Below, in pieces: positions 29,863-59,049 of a stretch of DNA of 64,000 nucleotides. The notes under the pieces are model-generated. The model saw only the letters and a program-made list of their open reading frames with translations, searched no databases and was not told the DNA's origin. The stretch is from Firmicutes bacterium CAG:460. GTDB taxonomy: Bacteria > Bacillota_I > Bacilli_A > RF39 > UBA660. Every line of letters starts with the position of its first letter. Positions within the stretch are counted from its first letter, which is position 1. Made by a program: the position numbers and the translations under genes. Location of the stretch: NCBI GenBank assembly GCA_000437355.1, contig FR899774.1:114595-178594 (forward strand), given 5' to 3'.

Positions 29863-30036
29863 GCCTTTTTTATTTTATTGTAACAGTGTATATAAAGTAT
29901 ATACAATGTTATTTTTGCTATAAGATTATGATATTATAACTAAAGCAAAAAAGAAGAATATAAGTTATCAACAAAATATTTATTTTAAGTACTCTTTAAT
30001 TGGTAAAACAATTTATTATTTTTTTGTAAAGTGTTA

Positions 30037-30783
30037 TGTTTCACGTGAAACAATGTGTGAATAATATGTTAGTTTAGGATTTATTTTTTTTAATATATTT
30101 TTAAAATTATAATACAATAACAATAATTAAAAATAATTAATATTGTTTTCGATGTTTAAATTCTTTTTCTAATTATTATTATAATTATAGTGATGTTTCA
30201 CGTGAAACATTGTGTTGATAAGTTGTTGATTTAAGATATATTTATAATATTAAATATTTTATATTTTAAATTATCTTTTTATTATTATTAATTACTATAT
30301 TTTAATATATATTTATTTTATATATTTTAAAATACATGTTTCACGTGAAACATTGTTGATAAGTTGTTTATATTAATATTATTTCTATTAATTCTAATCT
30401 TTTTTAATAATATAAATACCATGTGATTATTAAAATAATTTAATGTTTCACGTGAAACATTGTGTTGATAATATGTTTATATTCTGTTTTAGTTTAATTA
30501 TTATATTAAATTTAATCTTTTTCCAATTTAAATTATATGTTTCACGTGAAACATATTGTTGATAACGTGTTAATTTAAGGTTTATCTATATTAATATGTA
30601 TTTTTAATATTATAATACAAGATTTTCGTAAATATATATTTAATATTATTAATCGTTAATTATTATTTTTAAATTCTATATAATTTCCTATTAAAAATTT
30701 AGGTAATGTTTCACGTGAAACATTGTTAATAGGTTGTGAATAGTTTTATTGAAAATTAATACCCATATGTTACACGTGAAACA
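30037..30783. promoter_or_regulatory. Array of seven parS (ParB-binding centromere) sites
   Basis: TGTTTCACGTGAAACA at 30037-30052, 30194-30209, 30337-30352, 30444-30459, 30538-30553 and 30707-30722. TGTTACACGTGAAACA at 30768-30783. All fit the Firmicute parS consensus TGTTNCACGTGAAACA. Confidence 0.85.
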
Positions 30784-30865
30784 TATGGACGAACAAATGT
30801 ACAATAAACTAATACTTTAACATAAGAATTTAATTATTCATTTTTATCAAATCGTATTTATAAAT

Positions 30866-30881
30866 TATTTCCCGGGAAATA
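30866..30881. promoter_or_regulatory. Noc-binding site (NBS), perfect 16-mer
   Basis: TATTTCCCGGGAAATA, containing the published B. subtilis NBS core ATTTCCCGGGAAAT. It lies inside a 22-bp perfect palindrome (30863-30884). Confidence 0.75.
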
Positions 30882-31022
30882 ATTAGTTAACATAATATTT
30901 TAGTATATTTGTGTTTTTTTGAAAAAATAAATGTTAATTAAAGCTAGATACAATAAGGTAAAAACAAGAATAGCAAGATTAAAAAAATTATTATTTTAAC
31001 AATTATTTAATTTTTGAATAAA

Positions 31023-31038
31023 TATTTCCCGGGAAATA
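31023..31038. promoter_or_regulatory. Noc-binding site (NBS), perfect 16-mer
   Basis: TATTTCCCGGGAAATA. It is part of a 38-nt direct repeat (31024-31061) that matches 30867-30904 at 37 of 38 positions and also carries a GTTAAC palindrome. Confidence 0.75.
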
Positions 31039-31207
31039 ATTGGTTAACATAATATTTTAGTCGATTAAACTTATATTAATATTTAATTTTTGGCATATTT
31101 TAGCCAAAATATTAATCATAATTAAAAATAGTACATGAGTTATCAACATAAAAATTAGTTAAATATTTAATACTATAATAACTATATAATAAATGTTGGT
31201 ATTTTAC

Positions 31208-31236
31208 TTGACTTTTAAATAGTAATTTGATACGAT
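31208..31236 (+). promoter_or_regulatory. Sigma-A type promoter of the SRP RNA gene
   Basis: TTGACT (31208-31213), 17-nt spacer, TACGAT (31231-31236). Confidence 0.6.
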
Positions 31237-31240
31237 GTAA

Positions 31241-31320
31241 ACGTGCAACAAATATGCTGTAACCTGGTCAGGATTGGAAAATAGCAGCCACATCAGCCTA
31301 TGTTTGTGTGCACATTTTTT
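31241..31320 (+). ncRNA. ffs: Small (4.5S-type) signal recognition particle RNA
   Basis: CCUGGUCAGGAUUGGAAAAUAGCAGCC matches the conserved domain IV (GGUCAGG..GGAA..AGCAGCC). The 5' GTGCAACAAATATGCTG pairs with the 3' CAGCCTATGTTTGTGTGCAC. A T-run follows. The position upstream of tadA/dnaX is typical. Confidence 0.8.
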
Positions 31321-31331
31321 TTGGAGGTAAA

Positions 31332-41149: not shown

Positions 41150-41360
41150 AAACTATGTTTAGTTTAACGAAGAAGGAAAGAGTAGGTATCTTAGTTTCAT
41201 AGAGATTTCTTGGTTGGTGGAAAAGAAAAAATGAAGATATACGAACATGGCTCTGGAGTTAAAATCGGGTAATTACGTTAAAGATTTTAAGTTGCATGAT
41301 AAATCATGAATTAAGGTGGTACCGCGGGTTATACTCGTCCTTAGTTTGTGATTTTTTTAT
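41150..41360 (+). promoter_or_regulatory. T-box leader (tRNA-sensing riboswitch), probable Met specifier
   Basis: AGAGA box and GGUGG distal region (41201-41220). Candidate specifier AUG followed by A at 41231-41234. F-box-like ACGUUA. T-box AAGGTGGTACCGCG at 41313-41326. Terminator arms 41301-41316 and 41339-41354 compete with the AAGG/CCTT antiterminator, and a T-run follows. Confidence 0.75.
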
Positions 41361-56716: not shown

Positions 56717-56846
56717 AAATACTGTATAAAAAAAGCACTATTTACACAAAATGTGCGAATATAGTGTTTTTTTCTTTTTTCTTTTGTGGTAAAATGGATA
56801 TGTAAAATAAAATATCCGTGCGTGATATTGTGATGAGGTGAACAAA

Positions 56847-58301
56847 ATGCAAAATAAAAAACAAGCAATAATATTAAGTATAGTAGCAAGTTTAGCATTA
56901 CTTGTATTAATAGTCGGAGCAACATATGCATACTTTCAAGCAAGTGGTGGAACTGGTACAAGTGCAAACTTGAAAGTAACAACATATACAACAGATGTAT
57001 TTAATTTTGAAGTAGGAAATGATATATCAATATATGCAGATGCAACATCATTTGCTAGTGGTAAAGGTAATGCTAGTGGAAGTACTTTTGCAAAAGCAAT
57101 ATTAACAGCAAATAATAAAACAAATACTGCAACAGAACATTATTATTTGTATTTAAATATATCAAATAATACGTTTTTATATACTCAAAATGAAAGTACA
57201 CCAGAATTGCTTTTAACAATAACAGATGCCAGTGGCAATGCTGTAACTGATATAACAAGTCTAGCATATAAGACAGTAACAGATGGTAAGGGTACAAGTA
57301 TATCAGGATATGACATAACAAATAAAAGTGGATTAATAACTCTATTTAATAATAAAGAAATTACTGCAAGTCCAACAAAAACAGATGAATGGAATATAAC
57401 AGTAACATTAGTAAATTATGATAAAGATCAAAGTGAAAATGCAGGAAAAAGTTTTAGTGCTAAGTTAATGATACAAAAAGAAGAATATAAATTACCAACA
57501 TTAGCAGAATATGTAAAATCACAATATACAGGAACACAAGGGGATAATGGTATCTATTATCACGATAGTACATTAACAAATGGAGCAGGTGATAATTCAT
57601 ACAGATTTGCTGGAGCAAGTGATGCAGTAAATAATTATATTTGCTTGGGTTCGAATGAAGCAACATGTCCAGATGCAAATTTATTTAGAATAATCGGAGT
57701 ATTTGGAGATAGAGTAAAACTAATCAAATCAACATCTGTAGGAAAAATGAAATGGGATAGTAATGGTTCAAATACATGGTCAACATCAAGTCTAAATATA
57801 TATTTAAATAATGATTTTTTAAATGCGTTTGATGAAACAACAAAAGGTAAAATAGCAGATACAACATGGAAAGTTGGAGGATTTAGTAGTAGCGGTCAAA
57901 CAGCCCAAACAGCCCAAACAGTATATCAAAATGAAATAGTAAGTCCAGTAACAACAAATGCAACGGATAATGCAACTACATATAGTGCAAAAGTTGGATT
58001 AATGTATGTAAGTGATTATGGATTTGCAGCAGCACCAAGTGCATGGACAGCAAATTTTAACACTTATAATGGCGATGCCATTAAAAATGTTAATTGGATG
58101 TATATGGGACTTATGGAATGGACAATTTCCCGTTATGCGGACTATTCGAACCGTGCGTTCAGTGTGGCTAACACCGGCTACGTGAGCGACTACCGCGTTG
58201 GCAATTATGCGTTCGGTGCGCGTCCAGTCTTCAATCTCACATCTTCTGTGAACTATGCATCGGGAAGTGGCTCTGCCACTGATCCGATTTTGGTAAACTA
58301 G
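56847..58301 (+). CDS. Secreted protein with a TasA/SipW-type signal peptide and a C-terminal lectin-like W..S...G.RP module
   Basis: ATG at 56847 with GAGGTGA SD. N-terminus KKQAIILSIVASLALLVLIVGATYAYFQAS. C-terminus KVGLMYVSDYGF..EWTISRYADYSNRAFSVANTGYVSDYRVGNYAFGARPVFNL. Codon usage switches abruptly at about 58125. Confidence 0.8.
   Translation: MQNKKQAIILSIVASLALLVLIVGATYAYFQASGGTGTSANLKVTTYTTDVFNFEVGNDISIYADATSFASGKGNASGSTFAKAILTANNKTNTATEHYYLYLNISNNTFLYTQNESTPELLLTITDASGNAVTDITSLAYKTVTDGKGTSISGYDITNKSGLITLFNNKEITASPTKTDEWNITVTLVNYDKDQSENAGKSFSAKLMIQKEEYKLPTLAEYVKSQYTGTQGDNGIYYHDSTLTNGAGDNSYRFAGASDAVNNYICLGSNEATCPDANLFRIIGVFGDRVKLIKSTSVGKMKWDSNGSNTWSTSSLNIYLNNDFLNAFDETTKGKIADTTWKVGGFSSSGQTAQTAQTVYQNEIVSPVTTNATDNATTYSAKVGLMYVSDYGFAAAPSAWTANFNTYNGDAIKNVNWMYMGLMEWTISRYADYSNRAFSVANTGYVSDYRVGNYAFGARPVFNLTSSVNYASGSGSATDPILVN
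57897..57921 (+). repeat. In-frame 9-bp tandem repeat (CAAACAGCC x 2.8) encoding QTAQTAQT
   Basis: Read directly: caaacagcc caaacagcc caaacag. Confidence 0.9.
58134..58301 (+). other. GC-rich, NNY-codon-rich 3' segment of the CDS; candidate DGR variable region
   Basis: 23 of the 30 codons in 58134-58223 end in C or T (TAT GCG GAC TAT TCG AAC CGT ...). Hand count gives 156 G+C in 58141-58440 (52%) against 17 of 60 in 57001-57060. Confidence 0.4.
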
Positions 58302-58317
58302 GATCGGACATGCCTGT

Positions 58318-58337
58318 CTAGCGCGTCCGCGTGCTAG
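58318..58337 (+). other. GC-rich hairpin 17 nt downstream of the stop codon
   Basis: CTAGCGCG-tccg-CGTGCTAG: an 8-bp stem including one G:U, and a 4-nt loop. Confidence 0.6.
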
Positions 58338-58492
58338 GTAAACGGGGTAAAAAATTATGCAGTGGCAAGAAGGACAGCAGTAAATTATGCTAGAAAAATG
58401 TCTGTCGTGGCTCGCGGAAGAGTGCGAGGCGGGGCAGTAGGCGGGGGTGTTAAAATAGAAATTGATATAAATGTAGATATTAAAAGTAGTTT

Positions 58493-58516
58493 AAGAGCTT
58501 TTGCTCTTTTATTTTG
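58493..58516 (+). terminator. Rho-independent terminator closing the surface-protein transcript
   Basis: AAGAGC-tttt-GCTCTT followed by a T-rich tail. Confidence 0.65.
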
Positions 58517-58551
58517 GATGAAAATAGTGTAATATTAAGTTGGTGATATAT

Positions 58552-59049
58552 ATGGATATTAAAGTGTTAGTTGTCGGTGCTTTGCAAGAAAATTGTTATG
58601 TCTGTAGTATTGGAAATAATGCTTTTATTGTTGACCCAGGTGATGAAGCTGATAGAATAATTGATGCATGTATGGGTAAAAATGTTGTTGAGATAATTGT
58701 TACTCATCATCATTTTGACCATGTTGGAGCTTTAGATGAATTAAAGAAGTATTTTAAACTTGAAGAAAATGTTAAAAGTGATATCTTTGATTATGAAATA
58801 ATTGAAACTCCAGGGCATACAACTGATAGTAGAAGTATTTATTTTAAAAATGAAAAAGTTATGTTTACTGGAGATTTCTTGTTTTATCGTTCTATTGGAA
58901 GAACCGATTTAGATACAGGTAGTGATATAGATATGATAAAAAGTTTAGAAAAAATTAGTAAATATCCCGATGATATAATTATTTATCCTGGACATGGACC
59001 TAAAAGTACATTGGGTAGAGAAAAGAATAATTTTAAATATTATTATTAG
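58552..59049 (+). CDS. MBL-fold metallo-hydrolase (glyoxalase II-like)
   Basis: THHHFDH motif, TPGHT, later GD..F and PGHG. ATG at 58552 with GGTGA SD. Confidence 0.85.
   Translation: MDIKVLVVGALQENCYVCSIGNNAFIVDPGDEADRIIDACMGKNVVEIIVTHHHFDHVGALDELKKYFKLEENVKSDIFDYEIIETPGHTTDSRSIYFKNEKVMFTGDFLFYRSIGRTDLDTGSDIDMIKSLEKISKYPDDIIIYPGHGPKSTLGREKNNFKYYY

What the first reader, a model, noticed from the sequence alone, without database searches (positions are those of the whole stretch)
58125..58460. Abrupt ~52% G+C island covering the last ~55 codons and 3' UTR of a surface-protein gene: candidate orphan DGR variable region
Up to about 58120 the gene uses the host's A/T-ending codons. From about 58125 it switches to GCG, CGT, GGC, AGC and CCG. 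By hand count, G+C is 156 of 300 in 58141-58440, against 17 of 60 in 57001-57060. The reading frame and the protein fold motif continue across the junction (EWTISRYADYSNRAFSVANTGYVSDYRVGNYAFGARPVFNL). That motif follows the W..S....A[FY].V...G......G[AF]R[PC] ending typical of C-type-lectin/DUF1566-like scaffolds, which diversity-generating retroelements diversify. In 58134-58223, 23 of 30 codons are NNY, rich in Tyr, Asn, Asp, Ser and Gly, as expected for descendants of AAY template codons. An 8-bp GC hairpin with a 4-nt loop lies 17 nt after the stop (58318-58337), resembling the hairpin needed for target recognition in characterised DGRs. No template repeat, Avd or reverse transcriptase is present in this window, so this would be a remote or orphan VR. 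The alternative is a 3'-end graft acquired from a higher-GC donor.
Basis: partly seen in the sequence, partly recalled or inferred. Interest (0 to 1): 0.8.

Follow-up and report, generated by a model that had tools for sequence, protein, structure and literature searches.

The report
Grafted DGR variable region, no retroelement
The G+C-rich 3' end of this surface-protein gene is a variable-region module of a diversity-generating retroelement, pasted in by recombination from a related gene; the retroelement that could mutate it is not nearby, and this copy looks frozen.

Summary
The island has four parts: a DGR-type variable region (VR, 58125-58227), a conserved coding tail, a conserved GC hairpin (58318-58337), and about 110 nt that is 96% identical to the VR-to-TR spacer of a complete DGR cassette found next to a homologous gene in a related assembly.

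Six related cassettes have VR/TR pairs that differ almost only at template adenines. They also carry an RT, an Avd and a MutS-like accessory gene. The RT gene is 20% G+C and the TR/VR 43-48%, so the G+C richness belongs to the DGR module and does not point to a high-GC donor.

The window holds no TR or RT. Window 57687-58339 is a recombinational graft, 99.5% identical to a paralogue at another locus in another assembly. Sister strains carry other VR modules at this same locus.

The window's VR class is diversified elsewhere. However, this exact VR allele recurs unchanged in four gene contexts, and no matching TR was found in any sequence I could reach.

Verdict: a remote or orphan DGR VR, probably static in this strain. 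It is a new member of a known kind.

The parts
56847..58301 (+). Target-type gene, 484 aa (an alternative GTG start lies at 56838). It has an N-terminal hydrophobic helix (signal peptide or anchor), a beta-rich N-terminal half and a C-terminal DUF6273 domain.
   Evidence: ORF list. Pfam DUF6273 E 1.6e-7, 31.8 bits against a cut-off of 23.5, residues 305-468. The identical protein is recorded on 7 contigs. The AF2 model of the last 234 aa (pLDDT 76.5) matches phage DUF6273 proteins and PDB entry 9qa6.
57687..58339 (+). Recombinational graft covering the C-terminal domain, VR, tail and hairpin.
   Evidence: Only 3 mismatches in 653 nt against L183 (another sample, RecD2-MreC locus), versus 60-70% identity in the rest of the gene and about 35-50% after 58339. 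The left edge lies in the conserved NLFRIIGVFG motif. The right edge is the 3' end of the hairpin, whose outer stem is broken in the window.
58125..58227 (+). Variable region (VR), 103 nt, of the 114-nt class, encoding I S R Y A D Y S N R A F S V A N T G Y V S D Y R V G N Y A F G A R P.
   Evidence: It starts and ends where VR/TR homology starts and ends in related cassettes (ATTTCCCGT ... CGTCCAG). Against a TR inferred from two other VRs of this class, 15 of 33 adenine sites differ but only 7 of 72 other sites (Fisher p 7e-5). Against the L181 VR there are 20 differences, all at codon positions 1-2. G+C at third positions is 63% and A-ending codons 3%.
58228..58301 (+). Conserved coding tail after the VR (V F N L T S S V N Y A S G S G S A T D P I L V N, then stop). 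It is not part of the TR homology.
   Evidence: It is 93-97% identical in DNA to the tails of paralogues whose proteins are only 54-68% identical to the window's. It is 45% G+C.
58318..58337 (+). GC hairpin, 8 bp (one G-T pair) with a 4-nt loop TCCG. It is a candidate cruciform or target-recognition element and a recombination breakpoint.
   Evidence: Sequence, DNA fold. It is conserved in 23 loci. The flanking outer stem shows compensatory CG/UA changes in 6 and 10 sequences. Both the window-L183 identity and the L001-L056 identity end at its 3' edge.
58340..58455 (+). G+C-rich 3' untranslated element, homologous to the VR-to-TR spacer of a DGR cassette. It contains a second conserved hairpin at 58401-58437.
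   Evidence: 96% identical to L003 11478-11589, which lies between the VR and TR of a complete cassette. 100% identical in L001, whose genome is about 91% identical overall. RNA fold z -3.6. Consensus helices are 94.5% paired, against 24-47% for slid controls. No Rfam family matches.
58493..58518 (+). Intrinsic-terminator-like site that ends the transcript after the G+C-rich element.
   Evidence: Terminator scan.

Best explanation
The island is the 3' module of a DGR target gene. It consists of the VR (58125-58227), a conserved tail, a conserved GC hairpin and part of the spacer that separates VR from TR in related cassettes. The gene belongs to a large paralogous family of secreted DUF6273 proteins in small-genome human-gut Bacilli. 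In relatives, one family member sits directly upstream of a DGR cassette ordered TR, MutS-like gene, Avd, RT. That member's VR is rewritten from the TR with adenine-specific errors.

The G+C richness is a property of the DGR sequences themselves. Framework codons avoid adenine (GCG, GTG, GGC, CGT, TTC), variable codons descend from AAY, and each homing event would reset the VR to the TR's composition. This is why the module is shielded from the A+T drift that has taken the RT gene to 20% G+C.

In this strain the module arrived by homologous recombination. A 653-bp graft (57687-58339) from a paralogue of another lineage replaced the module seen in sister strains, with crossovers in a conserved protein motif and at the hairpin.

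The cognate TR and RT are not in the window. This VR allele is identical in four gene contexts, and the TR class implied by sister strains does not match it. It is therefore most likely a remote VR that is at present orphaned or frozen.

Shown: homology to genuine VR/TR pairs, the graft, adenine-type diversification of this VR class elsewhere, and the invariance of this allele. Inferred: the role of the hairpin and 3' element in target recognition, and the present inactivity.
For: Complete cassettes beside homologous genes have these adenine/non-adenine mismatch counts between TR and VR: L003 11/0, L017 17/0, L062 12/1, L089 22/1, L095 15/0, L097 24/0. Cassette proteins are an RT (RVT_1, E 3.4e-13) with IGNMTSQ and YMDD motifs, an Avd (NF033474, E 2.4e-8) and a MutS_I-like protein of 126 aa.

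In 14 orthologues that are at least 93% identical outside the VR, entropy is 2.3-2.95 bits at the AAY codons of the TR and 0 in most codons without adenine (at most 0.75 bit). G+C in the L003 cassette is RT 0.196, Avd 0.21, TR 0.43, VR 0.48, spacer 0.43. Window 58340-58450 is 96% identical to that spacer.

Graft: window 57687-58339 versus L183 has 3 mismatches in 653 nt. At the same chromosomal locus, sister strains L177 and L178 (L178 about 97% identical downstream of the island, L177 about 91% overall; both encode the identical neighbouring protein) carry a VR of the L003 class, with 16 adenine and 1 or 5 non-adenine differences from the L003 TR.

Class activity: L180 and L085b are the same remote locus in two samples. 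Their flanks are 100% identical, and 21 of their 22 VR differences lie at codon positions 1-2. The window VR and the L181 VR differ at 20 positions distributed 10/10/0 by codon position, while the flanks are 13-19% diverged. L087 is 218/220 identical upstream and 71/74 in the tail, but its VR core is 45/82 and 3 nt shorter.

Static allele: P0001, P0006, P0038 and P0042 share the identical VR, and the VR is nucleotide-identical in L183.
Against: No TR matching this VR was found. The closest TRs have 5-17 non-adenine mismatches, and a scan of all 183 fetched loci for a template that matches or has adenine at every position found none. The rest of this genome could not be searched, so an active cognate TR elsewhere is not excluded. 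Two features would fit a recently written, still competent target: the VR has acquired no new adenines and keeps a clean NNY pattern, and the 3' element is strongly conserved. VR-precise differences such as L087 could also arise by gene conversion between paralogues rather than by homing. The C-type-lectin fold was not demonstrated directly, because Foldseek matches to lectins were not significant.
Confidence: 0.68

Rival explanations
1. Active remote target. A DGR cassette elsewhere in this genome carries a TR of the 114-nt class that matches 58125-58227 at all non-adenine positions and still rewrites this VR in trans, using the conserved VR 3' end and hairpin. The allele looks invariant only because the lineage is rarely sampled or homing is infrequent.
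For: The same VR class is diversified at a remote locus between two samples with identical flanks. The window VR and the L181 VR share every framework base and every third codon position while their flanks differ by 13-19%, which implies a TR with exactly this framework. The VR has 1 A-ending codon in 35 and no adenine gains. The 3' element is intact. Remote targets are documented for chromosomal DGRs that have MutS-like and Avd accessory genes.
Against: The identical allele occurs in four gene contexts and in a nucleotide-identical donor-like locus. Sister strains at this locus carry the L003 class, which suggests the species' own TR is of that class and mismatches this VR at 16 non-adenine positions. 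No matching TR is present in 183 loci, the phage collection or the viral contigs.
Confidence: 0.27
2. Plain horizontal graft from a higher-GC organism, unrelated to any retroelement.
For: The composition change is abrupt, and a graft really is present (57687-58339).
Against: The graft begins 438 nt upstream of the G+C jump and its first two thirds are A+T-rich. The donor-like locus L183 belongs to an equally A+T-rich relative. The same G+C-rich segments occur in all paralogues and inside DGR cassettes whose RT is 20% G+C. The G+C-rich stretch aligns base for base with VR/TR repeats.
Confidence: 0.02
3. Assembly chimera or contaminant at about 58125.
For: Contigs of related samples often break in this region. 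L179 starts at 58388, and many homologous fragments sit on contigs shorter than 2 kb.
Against: The identical gene is recorded on 7 contigs (only one seen, so their independence is unverified). The sequence across 58125 is 99.5% identical in an unrelated sample (L183). The right-hand junction is shared with L001, L002, L177 and L178.
Confidence: 0.01

Closest known systems
Chromosomal DGRs with non-adjacent (remote) targets, such as the Treponema denticola DGR with seven remote targets (Wu et al. 2018, PMC5758913; Nimkulrat et al. 2016, PMC4891356)
   Same: One cassette with several paralogous surface-protein targets dispersed in the chromosome. The VR is at the extreme 3' end of the ORF. Non-adenine substitutions and 3-nt indels in AAC runs are frequent, as seen here.
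   Different: For the window's VR, no TR with adenine-only differences has been found, and that is the published criterion for assigning a remote target. The target domain is DUF6273. VR-bearing modules are also exchanged between paralogues and between lineages by recombination.
Legionella pneumophila-type DGRs that carry a MutS-like (MSL) accessory gene together with avd (Wu et al. 2018, PMC5758913)
   Same: The related cassettes encode a small MutS_I-like protein (126 aa, E 2.8e-5), an Avd and an RT. MSL-containing DGRs always also contain avd.
   Different: The gene order here is target, spacer, TR, MSL, avd, RT. The host is a low-GC gut Bacilli lineage. None of these components is present in the window.
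Bordetella phage BPP-1 DGR target site: IMH plus hairpin/cruciform (Guo et al. 2011, PMC3240598)
   Same: A G+C-rich 3' end of the VR, followed downstream by an 8-bp GC-rich stem with a 4-nt loop. In BPP-1 the stem structure, not its sequence, matters. Here the stem and its extension are conserved, with compensatory changes.
   Different: The hairpin is about 90 nt from the VR end (4-34 bp in phage DGRs). The loop is TCCG or GAAG rather than GRNA. It is followed by a further conserved structured element of about 110 nt that was not described for BPP-1. Its function here is untested.
Phage DGR targets with DUF6273 domains ('tentaclins', PMC10743442; Faecalibacterium prophages, PMC11792537)
   Same: The same Pfam domain carries the VR. 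AlphaFold models of such domains were reported to resemble C-type lectins. The model made here matches phage DUF6273 proteins (E 3.6e-7).
   Different: This is a cellular, chromosomal, multi-copy gene family with a signal peptide, not a phage receptor-binding protein. No phage genes are nearby.

Membership tests
Diversity-generating retroelement (the locus as a DGR target) | A template repeat (TR) that differs from the VR only, or almost only, at TR adenines | tested here: not met
   There is none in the window, none in 183 related loci, and none in the phage or viral collections. The closest TRs of relatives have 5-17 non-adenine mismatches. The rest of this genome could not be searched.
Diversity-generating retroelement (the locus as a DGR target) | A DGR-type reverse transcriptase (IGxxxSQ and YMDD motifs) and an accessory Avd in the same genome | not testable with these tools
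   Absent from the 64-kb window (tblastn best E 0.24). Present beside homologous genes in relatives. Only the window and about 10 kb around it are accessible for this genome.
Diversity-generating retroelement (the locus as a DGR target) | The VR lies at the 3' end of the target ORF and is homologous to the VRs of demonstrated VR/TR pairs | tested here: met
   Window 58125-58227 aligns with the VR and TR of L017, L003, L097 and others, with the same start (ATTTCCCGT) and end (CGTCCAG). Differences from an inferred class TR are enriched at adenines: 15/33 against 7/72, p 7e-5.
Diversity-generating retroelement (the locus as a DGR target) | Hypervariability between strains confined to codons templated by adenines | tested here: inconclusive
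   Met for the VR class: L180 versus L085b has 21 of 22 differences at codon positions 1-2 with identical flanks, and the window versus L181 gives 10/10/0. Not met for this allele, which is identical in P0001, P0006, P0038, P0042 and L183.
Diversity-generating retroelement (the locus as a DGR target) | G+C-rich VR 3' end (IMH-like) followed by a GC hairpin/cruciform with a 4-nt loop | tested here: inconclusive
   The hairpin is present and conserved. It is about 90 nt from the VR end and its loop is TCCG, not GRNA. No IMH/IMH* comparison is possible without the TR.
Pfam DUF6273 (PF19789) | A match above the curated gathering score | tested here: met
   31.8 bits against a cut-off of 23.5, E 1.6e-7, residues 305-468. 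The structure model matches DUF6273 proteins in BFVD (E 3.6e-7) and 9qa6, whose N-terminal domain is annotated DUF6273.
C-type lectin fold (the usual DGR variable-protein scaffold) | Significant structural similarity to solved C-type lectin or Mtd/TvpA-type domains | tested here: inconclusive
   The full-length model was poor (pLDDT 38.8). The domain model has pLDDT 76.5, but only one of five models was good. CD23, MBP-C and macrophage galactose lectin appear only at E 2-8. There are no sequence matches in the PDB. The lectin resemblance of DUF6273 rests on the literature.

The most novel reading that the evidence does not exclude
These gut Bacilli may run a two-tier surface-variation system. 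In the first tier, a single chromosomal DGR rewrites the VRs of a dozen or so dispersed DUF6273 paralogues in trans. Each target would be marked by a portable 'landing pad' of about 240 nt: the conserved tail, the hairpin and the structured 3' element. In the second tier, already diversified VR modules are shuffled between paralogues, strains and even species, by recombination whose breakpoints sit at the VR edges and at the hairpin. On this reading the window's island is one such transplanted, pre-diversified module.
Probability: 0.3. Interest if true: 0.7.

Novelty: new member of a known kind. Interest (0 to 1): 0.5.

Why it matters
Large surveys state that they miss DGR targets that are not adjacent to the RT. 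This case shows that an abrupt G+C and codon-usage island at the 3' end of a gene in an A+T-rich genome is a usable, composition-only signature of such remote or orphan VRs. It also documents that VR-bearing modules move between paralogues and lineages by recombination. Some apparent 'targets' are therefore transplanted, frozen alleles rather than sites of ongoing mutagenesis, which matters when DGR targets are counted or when surface variation in uncultured gut bacteria is interpreted.

Tried and rejected
1. TR in the window. A repeat search and blastn with word size 7 found nothing.

2. RT in the window. tblastn with a related DGR RT gave a best E of 0.24.

3. Phage origin. There was no DNA match in 50,697 phage records, no exact pattern match in viral contigs, and only distant RTs (at most 32% identity) in viral contigs.

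4. TRs of ten related cassettes as template for the window's VR. All were rejected, with 5-17 non-adenine mismatches.

5. A scan of all 183 fetched loci for a template that matches or has adenine at every VR position found none.

6. Remote paralogues of one MAG (CAKORY) against its only visible TR gave 7-28 non-adenine mismatches, so most remote copies there are not in register with that TR.

7. Known RNA family in the 3' element: none, at either gathering or E-value thresholds.

8. Small ORF in the 3' UTR (58398-58532, 44 codons). Rejected as a gene because a 2-nt indel in sister strains shifts its frame.

9. The full-length AlphaFold model was too poor to use (pLDDT 38.8). Sequence searches of the PDB returned nothing.

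10. Linking the window's strain to a cassette through sample accessions was not possible. Similar places are collapsed in the look-up output, and the single scans of the genome and metagenome collections had already been used.
Full report
**Observation**

The island is real, and it is unique in the window. The highest 300-nt G+C is 0.537, near 58150. The window mean is 0.264 (sd 0.039), and the highest value outside the island is 0.373.

Inside the gene (56847-58301, 484 aa), G+C at third codon positions rises from 10% in the 426 upstream codons to 63% in the 35 VR codons. A-ending codons fall from 51% to 3%. The 8-bp hairpin with a 4-nt loop is at 58318-58337. The window contains no second copy of the region and no reverse transcriptase.

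**What the gene is**

The protein has an N-terminal hydrophobic helix and a C-terminal Pfam DUF6273 domain (E 1.6e-7, above the gathering score). DUF6273 domains carry the VR of phage DGR targets, and their models were reported to resemble C-type lectins (PMC10743442).

A full-length AlphaFold model was useless (pLDDT 38.8). A model of the last 234 residues built on a deeper alignment reached pLDDT 76.5. It matches phage DUF6273 proteins (best E 3.6e-7) and the Thomasclavelia ramosa IgA peptidase 9qa6 (E 8.8e-5), whose N-terminal domain is annotated DUF6273. Classical C-type lectins appear only at non-significant E-values. The lectin fold is therefore plausible but was not shown here.

**Related loci with complete DGRs**

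The protein has thousands of relatives in human-gut metagenomes and in MAGs named 'Bacilli' or 'Tenericutes' bacterium. There are up to 13 paralogues per MAG.

In several assemblies a homologue lies immediately upstream of a complete DGR cassette. The order is target gene with VR, coding tail, G+C-rich spacer with hairpin, TR, about 300 nt, a 126-aa MutS_I-like protein, Avd, RT, and a 78-aa ORF. The RT carries the IGNMTSQ and YMDD motifs.

VR/TR pairs differ almost only at TR adenines. The adenine/non-adenine mismatch counts are L003 11/0, L017 17/0, L062 12/1, L089 22/1, L095 15/0 and L097 24/0. Two other cassettes (L091, L100) have 11-13 non-adenine differences, and one (L051) has a truncated TR, so decay also occurs.

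Among 14 orthologues of the L003 target that are at least 93% identical outside the VR, residue entropy is 2.3-2.95 bits at the codons templated by AAY and 0 in most codons without adenine (at most 0.75 bit). These are working DGRs of a known kind. MutS-like plus Avd accessory genes, remote targets, non-adenine substitutions and 3-nt indels are all described for non-phage DGR lineages (PMC5758913).

**Anatomy of the island**

The G+C jump at 58125 coincides with the first base of VR/TR homology in the relatives (ATTTCCCGT). The homology ends at CGTCCAG (58227).

The following 72 coding bases (the tail) are not templated by the TR. They are nevertheless 93-97% identical in DNA to the tails of paralogues whose proteins are only 54-68% identical to the window's.

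The hairpin and a second hairpin (58401-58437) are conserved in 23 cassette-adjacent and remote loci. In total 94.5% of cells are paired, against 24-47% when the partners are slid. Compensatory CG/UA changes occur in the extension of the first stem. Window 58340-58450 is 96% identical to the spacer between VR and TR of the L003 cassette. An intrinsic terminator follows at 58493-58518. No Rfam family matches.

**Why it is G+C-rich**

In the L003 cassette the RT gene is 19.6% G+C, avd 21% and the MutS-like gene 25%. The TR is 43%, the VR 48% and the spacer 43%. The retroelement's protein genes are thus fully adapted to the A+T-rich host, while its repeats and cis elements are not.

The composition is therefore a functional property of the DGR sequences: adenine-free framework codons, AAY-derived variable codons, and G+C-rich structured elements. 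It is not a mark of a higher-GC donor. That each homing event resets the VR to the TR's composition is an inference from the established copy-and-replace mechanism.

**The graft**

Window 57687-58339 differs at only 3 of 653 positions from L183, a contig of an unrelated sample. There the gene sits at a different locus (RecD2-MreC), and the rest of that gene is only 60-70% identical to the window's.

The identity starts in the conserved NLFRIIGVFG motif. It stops exactly at the 3' end of the hairpin. Beyond that point the window follows the L003 type, so the outer stem of the hairpin is mismatched.

At the same chromosomal locus (identical neighbouring MBL-fold protein), strains L177 and L178 (L178 about 97% identical downstream of the island, L177 about 91% overall) carry an L003-class VR. 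It has 16 adenine and 1 or 5 non-adenine differences from the L003 TR, plus a codon indel. L001 (about 91% identical genome) carries 825 nt that are 99.6% identical to a paralogue of another MAG, and this identity again ends at the hairpin.

The 3' half of this gene is therefore exchanged as a cassette between paralogues and lineages.

**Is this VR being diversified?**

Three results favour the class being active.

- L180 and L085b are the same remote locus in two samples, with no RT within 8 kb. They are 100% identical for at least 230 nt on either side of the VR. They differ at 22 of 105 VR positions, 21 of them at codon positions 1-2.
- The window's VR and that of L181 (another locus and sample) share every framework base and every third codon position. 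They differ at 20 positions split 10/10/0 by codon position, plus one codon in the AAC run. Their flanks are 13-19% diverged, mostly at third positions. This implies a TR with exactly the window's framework.
- L087 is 218/220 identical upstream and 71/74 in the tail, but it carries a VR of another class that is 3 nt shorter. That is a VR-precise replacement, as homing from another TR would produce, although gene conversion could do the same.

Four results count against activity at this copy.

- The identical VR allele occurs in four proteins that are otherwise 70-73% identical (P0001, P0006, P0038, P0042).
- It is nucleotide-identical in L183.
- No variant of this allele was retrieved.
- The TR class implied for this species by its sister strains mismatches this VR at 16 non-adenine positions.

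No matching TR exists in the window, in 183 fetched loci, or in the phage and viral collections.

**Verdict**

With high confidence (about 0.93), the island is a DGR variable-region module lying away from any cassette. With moderate confidence (about 0.65-0.7), it is a transplanted allele that is not being rewritten in this strain. An unseen cognate TR elsewhere in the genome remains possible (about 0.27). A high-GC donor and an assembly artefact are effectively excluded.

This is a new member of a known kind (remote or orphan DGR targets). Three features may be worth following up: the very large paralogue family, the module exchange with breakpoints at the VR edges and at the hairpin, and the conserved 3' element of about 110 nt shared by cassette-adjacent and remote targets.

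Noticed in passing
window 29863-31236: A 1.4-kb non-coding stretch (15-18% G+C) lies between an 833-aa ORF and the SRP RNA gene. It holds 7 copies of the 18-bp perfect palindrome ATGTTTCACGTGAAACAT (0 expected by chance), embedded in 50-100-nt direct repeats. It also holds two copies of a second palindrome, ATTTCCCGGGAAAT, 157 nt apart. This could be an operator array, an origin-like region or miniature repeats.
   Followed up: partly
window 57083-57502 and 58274-58573, compared with L001: These two tracts are 100% identical between the window and L001, although the two genomes are only about 91% identical in the surrounding 16 kb. This suggests recent exchange or gene conversion of the N-terminal part of the gene and of the 3' element.
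   Followed up: partly
L003 12065-12445 and 13835-14071; L017 2002-2382 and 3778-4014: The related DGR cassettes carry a small MutS domain I-like protein (126 aa, Pfam MutS_I E 2.8e-5) upstream of avd, and a conserved 78-aa ORF with no family match overlapping the end of the RT gene.
   Followed up: partly
L051 1590-1720: One MAG (CAKOKR) has a damaged cassette. The TR breaks off after about 35 nt and the MutS-like gene is missing, while avd and the RT (94% identical to L017) remain. This is either a decaying DGR or an assembly collapse.
   Followed up: no
L085 7434-8363, L086 5944-8513, L181 4628-6190, L182 5204-7456: Several remote paralogues are called as two or three consecutive short ORFs instead of one gene of about 480 aa. 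Either many remote copies are pseudogenes, or assemblies are error-prone in this family.
   Followed up: no
L179 (starts at window 58388); many hits lie on contigs shorter than 2 kb: Contigs of several assemblies end inside or next to the VR and 3' element. This is expected for sequence that is repeated among paralogues or heterogeneous within a population.
   Followed up: no
window 57918-57944: The short tandem repeat CAAACAGCC (encoding QTAQTAQT) in the C-terminal domain is one unit shorter in P0038 and P0042.
   Followed up: no
window 41161-41345 and 31237-31322: A T-box leader (105.7 bits) and the small SRP RNA (58.8 bits) are the only Rfam matches in the window.
   Followed up: no
window 56847-56945: The N-terminal motif VGATYAYF after the hydrophobic stretch is one of the two most conserved peptides of the family. 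From memory it resembles SipW-dependent (TasA/camelysin-type) signal peptides. NCBIfam gave no match.
   Followed up: partly
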